Origin: Laetmonice hystrix
Taxonomy: Eukaryota
Length of the DNA stretch: 64,000 nucleotides
Assembly: GCA_965235115.1 (NCBI GenBank)
Contig: OZ249440.1
Span: forward strand, 2,790,001-2,854,000
Direction: 5' to 3'
A program made the position numbers. Shown one piece after another: positions 9,001-60,000 of this stretch (position 1 is the first letter of the stretch; every line of letters starts with the position of its first letter).

Positions 9001-12000
9001 TCCCCGTACCTAGACTACCTCTGCCTACTGACACACCAGCCATGCTAGAAGCTACGAGAGGCATTGGTCGGAAACGTCCATGTAAACCAGCCAAACTTCC
9101 TGGTTAAAAAGCTTCAAGCCAACATCAGGTCAATTTACTTGGACAACACTTCCTGTGATAAACTTGTCTGTAGGTAAACCGGAATACTGCTACTTTCTTC
9201 TTTAATCTACACCTCAAACACTTCAATTCTCGTTCTGATCAGGGTCCAATAATACAGATCAAAAAGTTGCGATAATTGCCAAATGACCTTGTAGTACGTT
9301 CTCAACACTTGTCAACAGGATGCACTACTTCAGCTATGGGCATGACTTGCATAGATCGGGGTCCAGTTCCTACATTGTTTCGTAAAGCCAGGGGTTTGGA
9401 AGACCAACATGTCAGCAGTATAAAAATGTTTATTGTTTCTACGGTCAACAAGTTAAAAACATGAGCTGGCCTAGTCAGTGAATTATAGATGGGCAACTAG
9501 GGTTTGACTGGCGCTCTGCAATATAGGCCCTACTCCAAACTATCGCTATGCACATAAATGCAATCATAATAACGAAGACAACCACGCCACAGGATAAGTT
9601 GACTAAAATCTACATGCCAAGAACATATGATAGAATTGTGAACACCACACTGACAGCCATTGTTCCTGCAGTGACAAATTAACAAGACTTGTAGAATAAT
9701 TGTACGCTACTCATTCCAAACACTTGAATCGAGCTATAATTGAACACATGCCTCATTTTTTCATTCGGAGTAAATTTAGGTAACACTACCTAAGTTCAGA
9801 CTGCAGATCAAGATTTTGCGTCTCTTTCATAACTGGACTTCAACATGTTGAAAGTGTGATTTCCATGTAGATCAAAGCTATGGTTCAATACCAGGTACTG
9901 TGCCTTGCGTGTAGGAGGGTAAATACACACAAGATAAATCCAACCATTCAATCCACCCAGGTCTTATACACGTCAGAGGAGAAGGTGGCCCTAAAAATAG
10001 TTCCTTTAATCTCTTTGACAATATACCATATGAAAAGGCCATTCTCTTCTACGTGTTGTTATCACTAGCAGTCTGGTTCAGCTATGAATCCATTACATAT
10101 CCCTTGTCAAAGTGTTTGCACGATGGACCAAACGGTTGAGGAAATGCTAGAAAGCATAGATCATGTTGCACTGCAATAACTGGACACAAATAAGCAGTTT
10201 TGAGGTGCTGAAAGTATAACATACAAATCCATCATTCATTTTCCTACCCAAGTCAGGTAGAAAAATCCCTCATCACTCCCGTACAACTAACTACATGTAC
10301 TCCTCGGGGGTTTGGTATCCCTGGGCTAGGATGGAACGTTTGGTAGCTTATGTTTTAGTCCCTCAGTACGAGCTCGTGTTGGGTCGGAGCTCGTCAGTCT
10401 GGCTACCTGTAGTTGGGAGGATCCCGGGTTTGTACACAGCCGGGCCGGTCAATGGAAGGACAGCTCGGCTGAGTGCTATCTGCTGGTTGGTTGACTCAGA
10501 GCGAGTACTCGAGTAGCGTGCTGTAGGATGCCTTGACTGAACCGTAGTTGGCACAGAGAGCTGCCTTGCTCTCCCGACCCCAGTGTTTCTCCATAAACAC
10601 TTCTCCTTCCCATGTCGTTGTCGGCTTCTGCTCCAGCTGGGTCCAGTCTTCTCCCACAACCACCGCCACGGCGTTTGCCTTCGGTACATCTACTCGGAAC
10701 GCCACGTACTGGTAGCTGGACGCTGACCCTTTCGACGGTCGGTTGGCGGTCAGCTGGCCCTCTAGTGGCTCGTGTAGGAAGCAGCCTTCCTTCCATTGGC
10801 CGTACTGCTTCGGGAAGGGAATCAACGTAGCGTAAGTCATGTGGCAGGCTATCAGGTAGTTGTAGACACCAGGCAGGCTCTCGGAGGTGTCTGAGTATGG
10901 CAGTGCATACACTTGGAACTTGTACATTCCCATCTTGGGCAGCTTGATGTTGAAGATGACATTGTTGTCCCGGCCGAGCTGCAGGATGTAGTCGGAGAAG
11001 TCCTCGTTCTTGTTGCCGGAGACGTAGATAAGTTGTGACGTCATCCGGAGAGGTTGGTTCATGGCGAACGATACTTGAAGATCGCCGTTGTCTGACTGGA
11101 TGTACGGGTCGTTGTGACTGGTAGTCGCCAGTCCCAGCTTCTTGAAGGATGGCTGGGGACCGAGGTAACCAGGGGGTAGGACAGGAAGTGGTTCTACAGC
11201 TCCCTTAATCTCCTGACAAATGATCAGGTACTGGTAGGCGTGATACAACGAGTTGCCATCAGCTTCAGGATCATTGGCGTAGATCTCCAACCCATACTCT
11301 CCGACACCTGGGGCATTGATTGTGAACACAGCCAGGTCTCCAACAACACGGTGCATGATGTATCCTGCTAGAGCTTTCTCATCTTGCTCGTTGCTCTTTA
11401 GTTTGGCCGTAAAGCGCAGATCCTTGGGCAGCCGGAACTTGACCTCAGCCTGGCCGTTGACAGTGCTGAAGATGGCGCCACGCTGCATTGGTGTGATGTT
11501 GTACTTGTGTGCACTGTCTCCAGGTCCCCACGAGGTGTGAACGCATGGCGGGAACGGTTGTGGGCGTGGTGGGGAGGATTCAGCGATCACCTCATACTCA
11601 CACACCCCACCGTAAACTCCCTCCTTGGTGGCTTGTGTGAGATCCTTGGCGTACAGGATCAGACGGTAGGACCCAGCCTCAGGGGGTCGGATGGTGAAGA
11701 AGGACACGTTGTCAAGCATCTCCTGCATCCCGAAACGATTGAGTTTGGTGTTCTTGTACTCCTCTCTGCCATCGTCATAGGACAATGTGAATGTGAACGC
11801 CAGCGAGTTGGCCTTGAAGGGTGGACAACCGACACGGATCGTCACCTCCCGAGTGGTGTGGATGACCGCTTCACGGTGGCTCAGGATCTGAAGGCCGTAC
11901 TTGAAGAACGCAGACTTCACAGGTACCAGGTTCTCAAAGTCTGACAGCGAGATGGGGCGCTCAAGGAGCTGCCAGCTGGGGTCGTCCGGGAAATGAGTGA

Positions 12001-57000: not shown

Positions 57001-60000
57001 GAAGGACACCTCAGCACGGCCATTGGGTGCGAGTAGGATGGCACTCTCCTGGGAGGGTGTGAGACCATACTGACGGACCGGAGCTCCAGGACCCCAGTTA
57101 GAGTCCGAGCATTGCGGGTATGGATGTATGTCTCCTGCTGCCTGGTCACAGACAATCTTGTACTCACATGTCGCCTTGAATACATTCTCCACCTTGATAC
57201 GGTCCCCGACCTGCTGCGCGAAGATGGTCAGGTAGTAATTGCCCTCACGTGGTGCCCGGAAGTAGAACGATACACGTCCGTCAGCTGTCTCCTGGATGAT
57301 GTACCGTTTGAGACTGACCCCTTGGATGTTCTCCACCATCGCGTCACCGTATCCCAGTTTGAAGGTAAACGCTGCCATCTTGGTGTATCCAAGATGGAGT
57401 GCCAGGATTCCCTTGTTGGTATACATGACGCCCTGTTCCATGCCAATAAACTTCATACCCACCGTGAAGAAGTACGACTTGACGAGCGGGTAATCCTCAA
57501 AGTCGCCATGGGTTCGCGATGGGTAGAGAAGTTGCCATGTGGGATCTTCAGGACAGTGAGAGTAGCCGAGATGTTGTGGTTCCGGGATGAAGTAGAAGTC
57601 GTCATACTCGTAGACAAGGTTTTCTGGCGTGTTCCGTTCTGACTGGAGGTAGCGGGTCGCCCAGTGGCTGTCCACTAACTGCCAGTTTCCGTCGATAAAG
57701 ACAGCGTTCCAGCTGTGGTTGATTGGGCCCGAGGTGATGGGAGATCCAGGGCGGTACTCAACCCCCTTCGCCCAACCTGACAGCGTCACGCACGGCAACC
57801 CGGCATAGCTGTAGGTAACAAACATTCAACAGGTCATCAATATAGCGATTTTGATTTTAACCAATAATTGTTTTTTATCTTTTCAAAAACCTTAAGACTA
57901 CTCACTTAAGATGGGACGGTTTGAGAACAACTGATCCGCTACTTTTATTAAGTTACCATTAAGTCATGCATCTTAAAGGGAAATGTGAGTGTTCAAAGCG
58001 CCACCTAGTGAGTCGCGTTGGTACCACTGTGGAAATATGAGTATTCAAAGCGCCGCGTACTGAGCTTTAACAGAAAAATGGTTGGCTTATTTATGCAGTC
58101 AACTACTTTGATGTGGAAATCAGATCTTAGAAAGCCTTTATCTATTTAGAATATTGTGGCTATATCTTTGTACGGTATCACAGTTAGTACCTCGCAAGGC
58201 ATTCAAAGATGCGGGCGTATGTGGTCTTGCCGTCCTTAAAACCGTCGATGATTTGTTCGGGAGAGCCAGGCAGCAGGCTGTCGAACATGATCGTGTACAT
58301 ATTCTTGGTGGTCATCCATCGGAAAATGGTTCTGAAGGGGAAAAAATGACATTAGTAGAGTACAAACACACTTTGAGGCCAATACGGGATCACTGAACTC
58401 ACCTAAATGTCTCAATCTCTGACAACACCGTGCTAAACATCTGACCTTGCCGAGTATTTAAAAAGAGATAACTTTTCTCTGATGTCCAGTAAAAGGATTA
58501 ACCCATTTTTTTACGCTGCACGTGTTACTTTGATGTCTATTTCTATGACGACAGGGTCACACTGACCTTGCTTTCTCAAGGTCGTTGAAGTTCTTGCGAT
58601 GGATCAGGTTCCAGATGAGATCCCGGAAGGCGCGATAGTTTGTCCTTGCCTCCTGGAACACATGAAACAGGACGAATTGATGAAATCTTCCAGACTTTAT
58701 GGCATGTAGATCCCCCAAGGTGGCACTTACCACTACTTACAGCACACAAACCGGGCCCAGACCTCCACCACAACTCACCCCTGGCCCCGGTTTTTAGTTC
58801 GTCATTTTACCAATCTTAAGACTGAAATTTGAAGATTGAATTGTGTTATAGTCTCTCCGTGGCTGACTTCATTTCAAGGACCGATCAGAAGCTCTGAAAC
58901 AAGAGTTTAGTCTTAAGATTTAAATCTTAAGACTCGGTTTGCAAACTAAAAACCAGGGCCTGGCCCTGCCCTTGGCCCTACCCCTACCCCTACCCGTGCC
59001 CCTGTTCCACACCCGTACCCCTCATTCCGTGGGTACCCTGGGGGTATAACCCTGTGACACGCCACTGACAGAGTCCATGTTTGGGACTGTGTATTAGGCG
59101 TGGAAGGTTGGAGATAGGAAACCTTTGTACATACCAATACTGTGTGTCCACAAATCTAACAATAAATCTAACAATGTACACTGTGGCCAATATCAACTCA
59201 GACTGCCAACATGGCATGTGGAGTAGGACTGTTATCAATATTTCATACCAAGCTTTGGTTAACACGTTCAGTTATTTGGACTGTACAATTAGCGATGATA
59301 AGATTCCGTTTTTCTCATAGTTGCACCCATTTCCTAACTCACCACATATATGGATCCCGTCGGGATGGGGGATGATGTACCTTGAAAACCTAAGAAATAA
59401 ACGTCCCTACCCTGCACATAGAGTTCTCTGAATGGACATTGTTAGACCCAGATTGTTCCCCTGGGCCTCCTCCCCTCCCATTTATAACATCCTTTCTCTG
59501 TTCCTGTTTACTGTAAGATTTACTGAGGCTGTCCTATATCAGCCTGTAATACTTACAGGCTTTCCTGGAGATTTTCGACTTTTGGGGGAATCCTGCGAGT
59601 TGGGGGGGGGGGGGCGAAGAGTAATGCAAAATATTTGCCCCAGGAATTTTTTTTTTTGGGGGGGGGGGGAGCTGAATGATGGGGGAGAGTCCCCCCCCAA
59701 AAAAAAAAATAAAAATAAAAAAATAAAGGGCCTGCAGGAAACCCTGACCTATCTAGATGAGGGACCCCCCCCCCCCAGCCTTTAATCAAGTCCATTTTTC
59801 CCAGTCCAAGTACTAACTTCTGCAGCCTTCCCAAGTATTACGTGTACTGTACTAGGTGATGTGCCTGCTGAGCACTCTCCGTTAAAGAAGATCAGTTTTT
59901 GTATCCATGTAGTTCACGCATTCCAATAATTACTCCACAGACAACAATATTTCAACCTCAACTGGCAGTGGGCCACATCAGATAATGTTCTACTGCCAGG

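What the first reader, a model, noticed from the sequence alone, without database searches (positions are those of the whole stretch)
10496..58652. One gene with an internally duplicated transglutaminase-like/Ig-like module and preserved intron positions
Both modules have the same exon series: 86/89 nt (phase 0-2), 141 nt (phase 2-2), then a large exon starting (S)YAGL. The proteins are clearly homologous but diverged (FRDLIWNLI...NDLEKAR vs FRDLVWHLI...NELEKAR). Module 1 has two Ig-like repeats and no stop; module 2 has three plus a C-terminal domain. The KY, hillarin, LTD-1 and Cyk3 proteins I know carry one TG-like domain, so a tandem two-module form is unusual, though it may already exist among unannotated lophotrochozoan proteins.
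Basis: partly seen in the sequence, partly recalled or inferred. Interest (0 to 1): 0.65.

Follow-up and report, generated by a model that had tools for sequence, protein, structure and literature searches.

The report
Ordinary two-module hillarin gene
This is a normal member of the hillarin family, whose proteins carry two transglutaminase-like/Ig-like halves joined by a floppy linker in many worms, molluscs and flatworms, so the doubled layout is real but already known.

Summary
On the minus strand, two homologous modules (38.6% identity over 345 aa, E 5e-78) have the same exon series: 86/89 nt, 141 nt, then a large exon starting at (S)YAGL. Intron phases match. Pfam finds 2 Ig-like_KY repeats in the large exon of module 1 and 3 in that of module 2.

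The one-gene reading is well supported. Sixteen exons keep one reading frame for 1,595 codons. The 43 kb between the modules holds 8-9 repeat exons and two linker exons. These linker exons, and the exon leading into module 2, lie in the same order as in a 1,533-aa homologue, P0001.

The claim that this is unusual fails. Leech hillarin itself (Q964C7, 1,274 aa) has two Transglut_core and five Ig-like_KY matches. All 24 long homologues that I checked carry both modules. A tree puts every module 1 in one clade (100/97) across annelids, molluscs, a brachiopod and flatworms. The duplication is therefore ancient.

The first coding exon was not found in the window. No transcript data for this species were available. 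The architecture is already known, so interest is low.

The parts
58567..58652 (-). Exon A1, module 1 (86 nt, phase 0 to 2); encodes EARTNYRAFRDLIWNLIHRKNFNDLEKA(R). First exon of the gene seen in the window, not the first coding exon.
   Evidence: Splice sites read; phases; matches P0001 residues 43-77.
58191..58331 (-). Exon B1, module 1 (141 nt, phase 2 to 2); middle of TG-like core 1, with the motif GKTTYARIF.
   Evidence: matches P0001 75-123 at 82% identity, E 1.5e-20.
56626..57808 (-). Exon C1, module 1 (1,183 nt, phase 2 to 0): second half of TG-like core 1, two Ig-like_KY repeats, and the first copy of the Q/G/Y/P-rich repeat. Ends at the donor CAG|GTGAGT.
   Evidence: Pfam; donor; 71% identity to P0001 122-520.
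55241..55351 (-). Linker repeat exon R1 (111 nt, phase 0 to 0).
53925..54050 (-). Linker repeat exon R2 (126 nt, phase 0 to 0).
49664..49786 (-). Probable further repeat exon R2b (123 nt, phase 0 to 0). It is more diverged than the others.
   Evidence: Profile hit at E 1.3e-5; AG/GT sites read. Its nucleotide identity to the other copies (0.55-0.67) is close to the random level.
49305..49427 (-). Linker repeat exon R3 (123 nt, phase 0 to 0).
48944..49066 (-). Linker repeat exon R4 (123 nt, phase 0 to 0).
48054..48176 (-). Linker repeat exon R5 (123 nt, phase 0 to 0).
47563..47688 (-). Linker repeat exon R6 (126 nt, phase 0 to 0).
45988..46104 (-). Linker repeat exon R7 (117 nt, phase 0 to 0).
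44572..44700 (-). Linker exon L1 (129 nt, phase 0 to 0); encodes VTETATKEWDGN...
   Evidence: Matches P0001 553-590 (E 5.4e-4; E 1e-4); splice sites.
37996..38152 (-). Linker exon L2 (157 nt, phase 0 to 1); encodes VTTRMEAV...ELPPPPPELMEQ...
   Evidence: Matches P0001 592-643 at 60% identity, E 1.5e-13; also hit by P0002 and P0003. Splice sites.
13085..13347 (-). Exon up2 (263 nt, phase 1 to 0): end of the linker and lead-in to module 2 (...YPFGEG...PPKPFKDTDVFKNVDTHAVE). An in-frame ATG lies upstream at 13411-13409.
   Evidence: Matches P0001 791-880 at 62% identity, E 2.2e-30. Its acceptor phase 1 fits the phase 1 end of L2.
12752..12840 (-). Exon A2, module 2 (89 nt, phase 0 to 2).
12424..12564 (-). 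Exon B2, module 2 (141 nt, phase 2 to 2), with the motif GQTTYAVVF.
10496..12245 (-). Exon C2, module 2 (1,747 nt plus the stop codon): second half of TG-like core 2, three Ig-like_KY repeats and an all-beta C-terminal domain. Ends ...LLEYSL*.
   Evidence: Pfam; 80% identity to P0001 945-1533; model with pLDDT 83.6; tandem-Ig and FAP246 fold matches.

Best explanation
The region 10496-58652 (minus strand) is most of one protein-coding gene of the hillarin family.

The family's standard layout in spiralian animals is:
- a short N-terminal lead;
- module 1: a transglutaminase-like core plus 2 Ig-like_KY domains;
- a long, low-complexity, probably disordered linker;
- module 2: a transglutaminase-like core plus 3 Ig-like_KY domains and a C-terminal beta domain.

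The two modules come from one ancient tandem duplication of a multi-exon unit. That duplication predates the split of annelids, molluscs, brachiopods and flatworms. Three intron positions with the same phases survive in both copies.

The window's gene belongs to the long-linker annelid group that includes Helobdella HELRODRAFT_188380 (1,612 aa). That group is a sister paralogue of leech hillarin proper.

In this genome the linker is built from 8-9 tandemly duplicated phase 0-0 exons of 111-126 nt, plus two conserved linker exons. Introns between the modules are up to 24.6 kb long and rich in minisatellites.

Inferred function (not shown here): a cytoskeleton-associated scaffold. Its two TG-like cores are binding modules rather than enzymes, since no cysteine stands where the nucleophile is expected. 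The Ig-like strings act as spacers or interaction surfaces, and the linker sets the distance between the two halves.
For: Shown by tools:
1. Both modules and their exon series are real.
2. Sixteen exons with AG/GT sites keep one frame for 4,785 nt = 1,595 codons up to the stop. This includes the L2 exon ending in phase 1 and the up2 exon starting in phase 1.
3. P0001 (1,533 aa, from a 5.8-kb contig) maps in the same order onto A1, B1, C1, L1, L2, up2, A2, B2 and C2.
4. In one search, 53 of 65 hits are 1,177-1,677 aa. Of 8 scanned with Pfam, all 8 have 5 Ig-like_KY stretches and 7 have 2 Transglut_core stretches, Hirudo hillarin among them.
5. All 24 long homologues that I checked give two full-length matches to the C1 core.
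6. In the careful tree of 54 rows, module 1 is one clade (UFBoot/SH-aLRT 100/97, and in 100% of 200 bootstrap trees). All module 2 rows fall on the other side (97/87). The window's C2 groups with P0001-P0004 (99/93), and both window modules fall inside 11-row clades holding the leech sequences (100/100 for module 1, 97/91 for module 2).
7. Repeat exons R3-R5 are 75-80% identical in nucleotides while their 120-nt flanks are at the random level (0.53-0.64 against 0.56 +/- 0.04). R3 and R4 differ at 13 synonymous and 7 non-synonymous codons of 41. The profile of the repeat hits only the minus strand.
8. 0 of 20 other ORFs of 100 aa or more, 18 of them between the modules, hit Pfam.
9. No cysteine occurs in the G-K/Q-T-T-Y-A motif in any of 52 module rows, while the H of HSWNA and the D of LVDxHWA are kept in the two-module proteins.

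From papers (passages read):
- PMC3718969 section 17 describes a subclass of eukaryotic TG-like proteins that lack catalytic residues, discusses Drosophila hillarin and C. elegans Ltd-1 there, and reports that the inactive TG-like domain of Cyk3 binds Rho1-GDP.
Against: - No transcript of this species was available, so the splice that joins the modules is inferred.
- If the C1 donor is not used, a stop follows 5 codons later. That would give a module-1-only product.
- An in-frame ATG at 13411-13409 precedes the up2 acceptor, and shorter module-2-only entries exist in databases, such as 'hillarin isoform X2 [Patella vulgata]', 833 aa. Module-2-only isoforms are therefore possible.
- The first coding exon was not found in 58665-64000: 13 N-termini were tried, and the best match was E 0.01 inside a tandem repeat.
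- The repeat-exon profile hits 0 of 314 homologues. Inclusion of R1-R7 in the mRNA therefore rests only on splice sites, frame and conservation among the copies.
- P0004 shows only 1 Transglut_core stretch at the Pfam threshold.
- Where C1 sits inside the 11-row annelid clade is unresolved (67/46).
- Loss of the catalytic cysteine rests on a motif position that I recalled. The one PDB alignment (9crn_A) begins just after it.
Confidence: 0.9

Rival explanations
1. Two tandem single-module paralogues. Module 1 would end just past 56626, or in the repeat exons, and module 2 would start from its own promoter at the ATG at 13411.
For: - A stop lies 5 codons past the C1 donor.
- An in-frame ATG lies upstream of the up2 acceptor.
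- 43 kb separates the modules.
- Single-module relatives exist, such as the Dreissena CH-domain protein P0278 and Dimorphilus P0289, which sit inside the module 2 clade.
Against: - The frame is unbroken across all 16 exons, with matching phases.
- The linker exons L1 and L2 and the up2 exon lie in the same order as in single-ORF homologues.
- The minus-strand repeat exons are conserved while their flanks are not.
- All 24 long homologues checked carry both modules.
- The part of up2 before the acceptor has no counterpart in the homologues.
Confidence: 0.05
2. One locus that produces the full two-module protein and also shorter products: module 1 only, module 2 only, or forms with different numbers of repeat exons, through alternative promoters and splicing.
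For: - All repeat exons and L1 are phase 0-0, so any subset can be skipped without breaking the frame.
- P0001 has a much shorter repeat part than the window could encode.
- NCBI lists 'isoform X2' entries of 833-1,588 aa in other species.
- There is an in-frame ATG at 13411.
Against: No transcript evidence was available here. The shorter database entries may be partial gene models: many are marked partial or are ORF calls on genomic contigs.
Confidence: 0.4
3. The module 1 copy is a decaying pseudogene that only looks intact.
For: Its first coding exon was not found in the window.
Against: - The 394-codon exon C1 is open, 71-76% identical to its counterpart in P0001, and has intact splice sites.
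- Its branch in the tree is short (0.16).
- Only 5.3 kb lie upstream within the window, so the first exon may simply lie beyond the window's end.
Confidence: 0.02

Closest known systems
Helobdella robusta HELRODRAFT_188380 (P0004, 1,612 aa) and the unnamed P0001-P0003 (1,533-1,595 aa)
   Same: Same order of parts: lead, module 1, long linker, module 2. Identity is 61-72% to C1 and 74-80% to C2. P0001 also matches L1, L2 and up2. Grouped with the window's C2 at 99/93.
   Different: Their linkers contain no unit that matches the window's repeat-exon profile. P0001 has about 150 aa of QPYGQ/GAPGQ repeats between the parts matching L2 and up2, for which I found no exon here.
Hillarin of the leech Hirudo medicinalis (UniProt Q964C7, P0019, 1,274 aa)
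   Same: 2 Transglut_core and 5 Ig-like_KY matches, arranged 2 + 3. It has the same C-terminal tail motif, and both of its modules sit in the same clades as the window's modules.
   Different: About 49-50% identical. Its linker is much shorter (about 220 aa). It belongs to the sister annelid group with Helobdella HELRODRAFT_104535. I take the window's gene to be its paralogue, not its orthologue.
LIM-type 'hillarin-like' proteins (Dreissena P0311, Mactra P0307). D-hillarin of Drosophila and LTD-1 of C. elegans are, from recall, of this kind.
   Same: A TG-like core followed by Ig-like_KY repeats, and the same helix motif ...TY..F..LC.YAGLHC.
   Different: They have one module only and an N-terminal LIM domain (PF00412). 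Identity is 27-33%. The His and Asp kept in the two-module proteins are replaced (RNSWTA, LINVTWA).
KY (kyphoscoliosis peptidase) of vertebrates
   Same: It gives its name to Pfam Ig-like_KY, which hits both modules.
   Different: From recall it is a single-module protein of about 560-660 aa. I did not fetch or compare a named vertebrate KY.
FAP246 of the Chlamydomonas ciliary central pair (PDB 7n6g_6E, 7sqc)
   Same: The only solved structure with clear sequence similarity to the TG-like core and what follows it (profile E 7.8e-12). It is also among the best fold matches (E 8e-14; 7sqc_X0 TMq 0.36).
   Different: A distant relative in another protein context, and not a two-module protein as far as the match shows.
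Yeast Cyk3
   Same: A catalytically inactive TG-like domain used as a binding module for Rho1-GDP (PMC3718969, abstract and section 17).
   Different: It has an SH3 domain and a single TG-like domain. It was not compared by sequence here.

Membership tests
Two-module hillarin family (Hirudo hillarin type) | Two transglutaminase-like cores in one protein | tested here: met
   Exon by exon, A1/B1/C1 match P0001 43-520 and A2/B2/C2 match P0001 874-1533. Pfam Transglut_core hits those two places in homologues. The single exons give no Transglut_core hit.
Two-module hillarin family (Hirudo hillarin type) | Five Ig-like_KY domains arranged 2 + 3 | tested here: met
   2 stretches in C1 and 3 in C2. 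All 8 scanned homologues have 5.
Two-module hillarin family (Hirudo hillarin type) | Both modules lie in one transcript and one reading frame | not testable with these tools
   No transcript data for this species. The frame is consistent across 16 exons and the exon order matches single-ORF homologues, which supports it.
Two-module hillarin family (Hirudo hillarin type) | Conserved N-terminal lead (M..F....PP.PP..K..IY.D..F..VD.HAI) | tested here: not met
   13 N-termini were searched against 58665-64000 and none gave a credible match. The exon probably lies beyond the end of the window.
Two-module hillarin family (Hirudo hillarin type) | Each module groups with the same module of other species in a tree | tested here: met
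   Module 1 clade 100/97; module 2 side 97/87. The quick tree with more rows agrees (97 and 99).
Two-module hillarin family (Hirudo hillarin type) | Location at the axon hillock and interaction with septins | not testable with these tools
   Known only from the literature (PMC3081291 section 13, passages read).
LIM-type hillarin / LTD-1 | N-terminal LIM domain with a single TG-like module | tested here: not met
   No LIM hit in any of the 11 gene exons scanned (A1, B1, C1, L1, L2, up2, A2, B2, C2) or in 8 homologues. Two modules are present. The first exon of the gene is unseen.
Active transglutaminase-fold enzymes | Cys-His-Asp catalytic triad | tested here: inconclusive
   His and Asp candidates are invariant (H153/D168 and H982/D997 of P0001). 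No Cys occurs in the G-K/Q-T-T-Y-A stretch in 52 of 52 module rows. The exact column of the nucleophile is recalled and was not aligned to a solved active enzyme (begins after it).

The most novel reading that the evidence does not exclude
The stretch between the two modules is encoded by a lineage-specific tandem array of at least 8 frame-neutral cassette exons of about 41 codons. The copies are kept alike at the protein level while their flanks have decayed. Alternative use of these exons could tune the length of a disordered tether between two binding modules, much as differential splicing sets the length of spring regions in some muscle proteins.
Probability: 0.25. Interest if true: 0.35.

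Novelty: already known. Interest (0 to 1): 0.12.

Why it matters
It matters little beyond annotation. The doubled TG-like/Ig-like layout is how hillarin proteins are built, and it is already present in public protein sets for leeches, molluscs, a brachiopod and flatworms.

Three things are useful for annotators:
- The gene spans more than 48 kb, with introns up to 24.6 kb full of minisatellites. Gene predictors may therefore split it into two 'KY-like' genes.
- The duplication is older than the split of these phyla and has kept three intron positions.
- Annelids appear to have two such genes, and this one is the long-linker form.

Tried and rejected
- First coding exon: tblastn of 13 homologue N-termini against 58665-64000 gave nothing credible.
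- More linker exons between 38.0 kb and 13.35 kb: the linker parts of P0001-P0004 hit only the 29-nt minisatellite at 27.7-28.9 kb, on both strands, by low-complexity matches. I rejected these as exons.
- Repeat-exon profile against 314 homologues: 0 hits at domain E 0.01 or better.
- Pfam on the single small exons: no TG-like hit, as expected for pieces of 28-87 aa.
- Pfam on 20 other ORFs: 0 hits, so there is no sign of a nested gene or transposon protein.
- Rfam and tRNA scans: nothing.
I used the named hits instead.
- The original hillarin papers (Ji et al. 2001, 2005) are not held. Only 6 held papers mention hillarin, and none of the listings or passages I saw describes its domain layout.
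- PDB sequence search: only FAP246 and one bacterial-type TG-like entry were found. Neither alignment covers the nucleophile position.
- Not done: I made no spliced protein from the window's exons, so I ran no whole-protein Pfam scan, fold or search of the 1,595-codon model.
Intron positions in other species and transcripts of this species therefore stay unchecked.
- Supplements of papers were not consulted.

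
Full report
WHAT IS THERE

The window has no N. The best named matches to its gene are annelid, mollusc, brachiopod and flatworm proteins, so it is not a human contig.

The finding lies on the minus strand. I read the splice sites directly and tabulated lengths and phases without joining any sequence.
- Module 1: A1 58652-58567 (86 nt, phase 0 to 2), B1 58331-58191 (141 nt, 2 to 2), C1 57808-56626 (1,183 nt, 2 to 0).
- Module 2: A2 12840-12752 (89 nt, 0 to 2), B2 12564-12424 (141 nt, 2 to 2), C2 12245-10499, followed by the stop codon.
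- The large exons begin ..S|YAGLPC and ..S|YAGLHC.
- The large exons match each other at E 4.8e-78, 38.6% identity over 345 aa.
- Pfam Ig-like_KY (PF23265) hits C1 twice and C2 three times.

BETWEEN THE MODULES

The 43 kb between C1 and module 2 is not empty.

The last 45 or so codons of C1 are the first copy of a Q/G/Y/P-rich unit. It recurs as seven clear exons, all on the minus strand: R1 55351-55241, R2 54050-53925, R3 49427-49305, R4 49066-48944, R5 48176-48054, R6 47688-47563 and R7 46104-45988. A profile built from them finds one further copy at 49786-49664 (E 1.3e-5); the next hit is E 0.6. Each has an AG acceptor and a CAG|GT donor and is phase 0-0.

R3, R4 and R5 are 75-80% identical in nucleotides. 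Their 120-nt flanks are at the random level (0.53-0.64, against 0.56 +/- 0.04 for 200 random pairs). R3 and R4 differ at 13 synonymous and 7 non-synonymous codons of 41. That is the pattern of coding exons under selection, not of recent junk duplication.

Two further exons follow: L1 (44700-44572, phase 0-0) and L2 (38152-37996, ending in phase 1). Then comes exon up2 (13347-13085), whose acceptor is in phase 1 and whose donor (phase 0) feeds A2.

In all, 16 exons give 4,785 nt = 1,595 codons in one frame up to the stop, or 1,636 with the extra repeat exon.

The intron between L2 and up2 is 24.6 kb and holds 13 tandem-repeat arrays. None of 20 other ORFs of 100 aa or more, 18 of them between the modules, hits Pfam. 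There is no Rfam family or tRNA in the window.

RELATIVES

A search with exon C1 among longer proteins gave 65 hits, of which 53 are 1,177-1,677 aa. Named hits include:
- hillarin of Hirudo medicinalis (Q964C7, 1,274 aa);
- two Helobdella robusta proteins (1,612 and 1,276 aa);
- Lingula;
- many molluscs;
- flatworm proteins annotated 'Hillarin'.

I scanned 8 with Pfam. All 8 have 5 Ig-like_KY stretches, and 7 have 2 Transglut_core stretches. The exception is P0004, with one above threshold. All 24 long proteins that I tested with blastp give two full-length matches to the C1 core, one near residue 123 and one in the C-terminal half. The two-module form is therefore the family's normal form, and the founding member has it.

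P0001 (1,533 aa, encoded on a 5.8-kb contig) maps onto the window in the same order:
- residues 43-77 on A1;
- 75-123 on B1;
- 122-520 on C1 (71%);
- 553-590 on L1;
- 592-643 on L2 (60%, E 1.5e-13);
- 791-880 on up2 (62%, E 2.2e-30);
- 874-912 on A2;
- 904-953 on B2;
- 945-1533 on C2 (80%).

This is the strongest evidence that the two modules belong to one gene here too.

A search with C2 among proteins of similar length found a 92%-identical 561-aa entry (P0211, unnamed). It also found many entries of 560-612 aa that carry Ig-like_KY only. They have the length and domain content expected of ORF calls on the same large exon in other genomes. The whole-library search counted 5,417 relatives at E 0.001 or better and 363 at 1e-30 or better.

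AGE OF THE DUPLICATION

I cut the region equivalent to the first 345 aa of C1 from both modules of 24 two-module proteins. I added the window's C1 and C2 (each a single exon), two LIM-type single-module proteins as outgroup, and two other single-module proteins.

The careful tree (54 rows, 349 columns) shows:
- All 25 module 1 rows form one clade (UFBoot/SH-aLRT 100/97, and in 100% of 200 bootstrap trees).
- All module 2 rows fall on the other side (97/87).
- The two single-module proteins (Dreissena CH-domain protein, Dimorphilus) nest inside module 2, which suggests secondary loss of module 1 or partial gene models.
- Each module clade contains annelids, molluscs, Lingula and flatworms.

The duplication is therefore older than the split of these phyla.

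A quick tree with 13 more rows from nameless library proteins agrees (97 and 99). For that tree, 11 of 78 segments shorter than 300 aa were dropped.

In both halves the window sits in an 11-row clade that also holds the leech sequences (100/100 and 97/91). C2 groups with P0001-P0004, including Helobdella's 1,612-aa protein, at 99/93. The exact place of C1 inside that clade is unresolved (67/46). I read this as two hillarin-type genes in annelids, the window's gene being the long-linker one and a paralogue of hillarin proper. The organism is probably an annelid. I did not try to name it.

INTRON POSITIONS

Three introns lie at matching places and phases in both modules:
- before A (…HA..|, phase 0);
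- A|B (…EKA-R|AIF, phase 2);
- B|C (…L..-S|YAGL, phase 2).

This fits a tandem duplication of a multi-exon genomic unit. I could not compare intron positions in other species because no eukaryotic genome collection was available.

WHAT THE PROTEIN LOOKS LIKE AND PROBABLY DOES

A model of exon C2, built with 35 homologues, has mean pLDDT 83.6 and pTM 0.74. It is low only in the first 80 or so residues, which are half of a TG-like core and cannot fold alone. After that it is a string of beta-sandwiches, including the last 100 or so residues. Its best fold matches are tandem-Ig arrays (titin I65-I70, E 1.7e-14) and the ciliary central-pair protein FAP246 (E 8e-14; 7sqc_X0 TMq 0.36). FAP246 is also the only clear sequence match in the PDB (E 7.8e-12 with the family profile).

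In 52 of 52 module rows there is no cysteine in the stretch G-K/Q-T-T-Y-A that precedes the core helix. The histidine of HSWNA and the aspartate of LVDxHWA are invariant in the 16 aligned two-module proteins. That the nucleophile should stand in that stretch is my recollection of the transglutaminase-fold motif. The one alignment to a solved TG-like protein (9crn_A) begins just after it. The loss of the cysteine is therefore likely but not proven.

It agrees with the passages I read in PMC3718969 (abstract and section 17). They describe a subclass of eukaryotic TG-like proteins that lack catalytic residues, discuss Drosophila hillarin and C. elegans Ltd-1 among them, and show that the inactive TG-like domain of Cyk3 binds Rho1-GDP. 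Passages of PMC3081291 (section 13) place leech hillarin at the axon hillock, acting through septins.

My best reading, which is inference, is a bivalent cytoskeletal scaffold: two non-catalytic TG-like binding cores, each carried on Ig-like spacers and tethered by a disordered linker.

The linker's repeat units are specific to this lineage: the profile hits 0 of 314 homologues. All repeat exons are frame-neutral, so they could be used in varying numbers. That is untested.

WHAT STAYS OPEN

- No transcript of this species was available.
- If the C1 donor is skipped, a stop follows after 5 codons.
- An in-frame ATG at 13411-13409 lies upstream of the up2 acceptor, and shorter 'isoform' entries exist elsewhere. 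Shorter products alongside the full protein are therefore possible.
- The first coding exon (about 44 codons in homologues) is not in the window.
Pfam's Transglut_core model was therefore never applied to the window's own cores, which are each split over three exons. The single exons give no such hit.
- The two original hillarin papers are not held. Of the 6 held papers that mention hillarin, I read passages of two. Nothing I saw in the listings or in those passages describes the domain layout. My memory that Ji et al. 2001 described the domains as two tandem repeats is unverified.
- Paper supplements were not seen.

VERDICT

The novelty claim is not: this is an ordinary member of the hillarin family, whose two-module build is already in public databases, starting with the leech protein itself.

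Noticed in passing
window 4962-5747 (-): A single open frame of 262 aa hits Pfam Methyltransf_16 (lysine methyltransferase, E 5.2e-33). It is probably an intronless or single-exon methyltransferase gene, 4.7 kb downstream of the hillarin-type gene on the same strand.
   Followed up: partly
window 3611-3904 (-): A 98-aa open frame has weak, below-threshold hits to SAP/HeH-like helix motifs (RNF34L-like_3rd E 1.1e-4, HeH 3.1e-3). It may be an exon of another gene.
   Followed up: partly
window 27695-28871: A C-rich minisatellite of 29 nt with 40.9 copies (92% matches) lies inside the 24.6-kb intron. It is open in all frames on both strands and gives spurious low-complexity matches to the Pro/Gly-rich linkers of homologues.
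   Followed up: yes
window 13348-37995: The large intron holds 13 separate tandem-repeat arrays with periods of 25-117 nt. Examples are 25789-26618 (41 nt x 20.9), 29473-30422 (98 nt x 9.7) and 34975-35474 (46 nt x 10.9).
   Followed up: no
window 38220-38804: A 60-nt tandem repeat with 9.8 copies (96% matches) starts only about 70 nt upstream of the acceptor of linker exon L2 (38152).
   Followed up: no
window 550-1969: An 87-nt tandem repeat occurs in two blocks (10.1 and 3.7 copies, 98% matches) near the left end of the window.
   Followed up: no
window 60595-61021 and 61878-62466: Two tandem-repeat arrays (69 nt x 6.3 and 33 nt x 18.1) lie in the 5.3 kb upstream of exon A1, where the first coding exon was sought and not found.
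   Followed up: partly
proteins P0278 and P0076 (Dreissena polymorpha): These mollusc proteins combine a calponin-homology domain (PF00307) with a single hillarin module. In the tree that module nests inside the module 2 clade next to Mya (100/94). This looks like a derived domain shuffle of module 2.
   Followed up: partly
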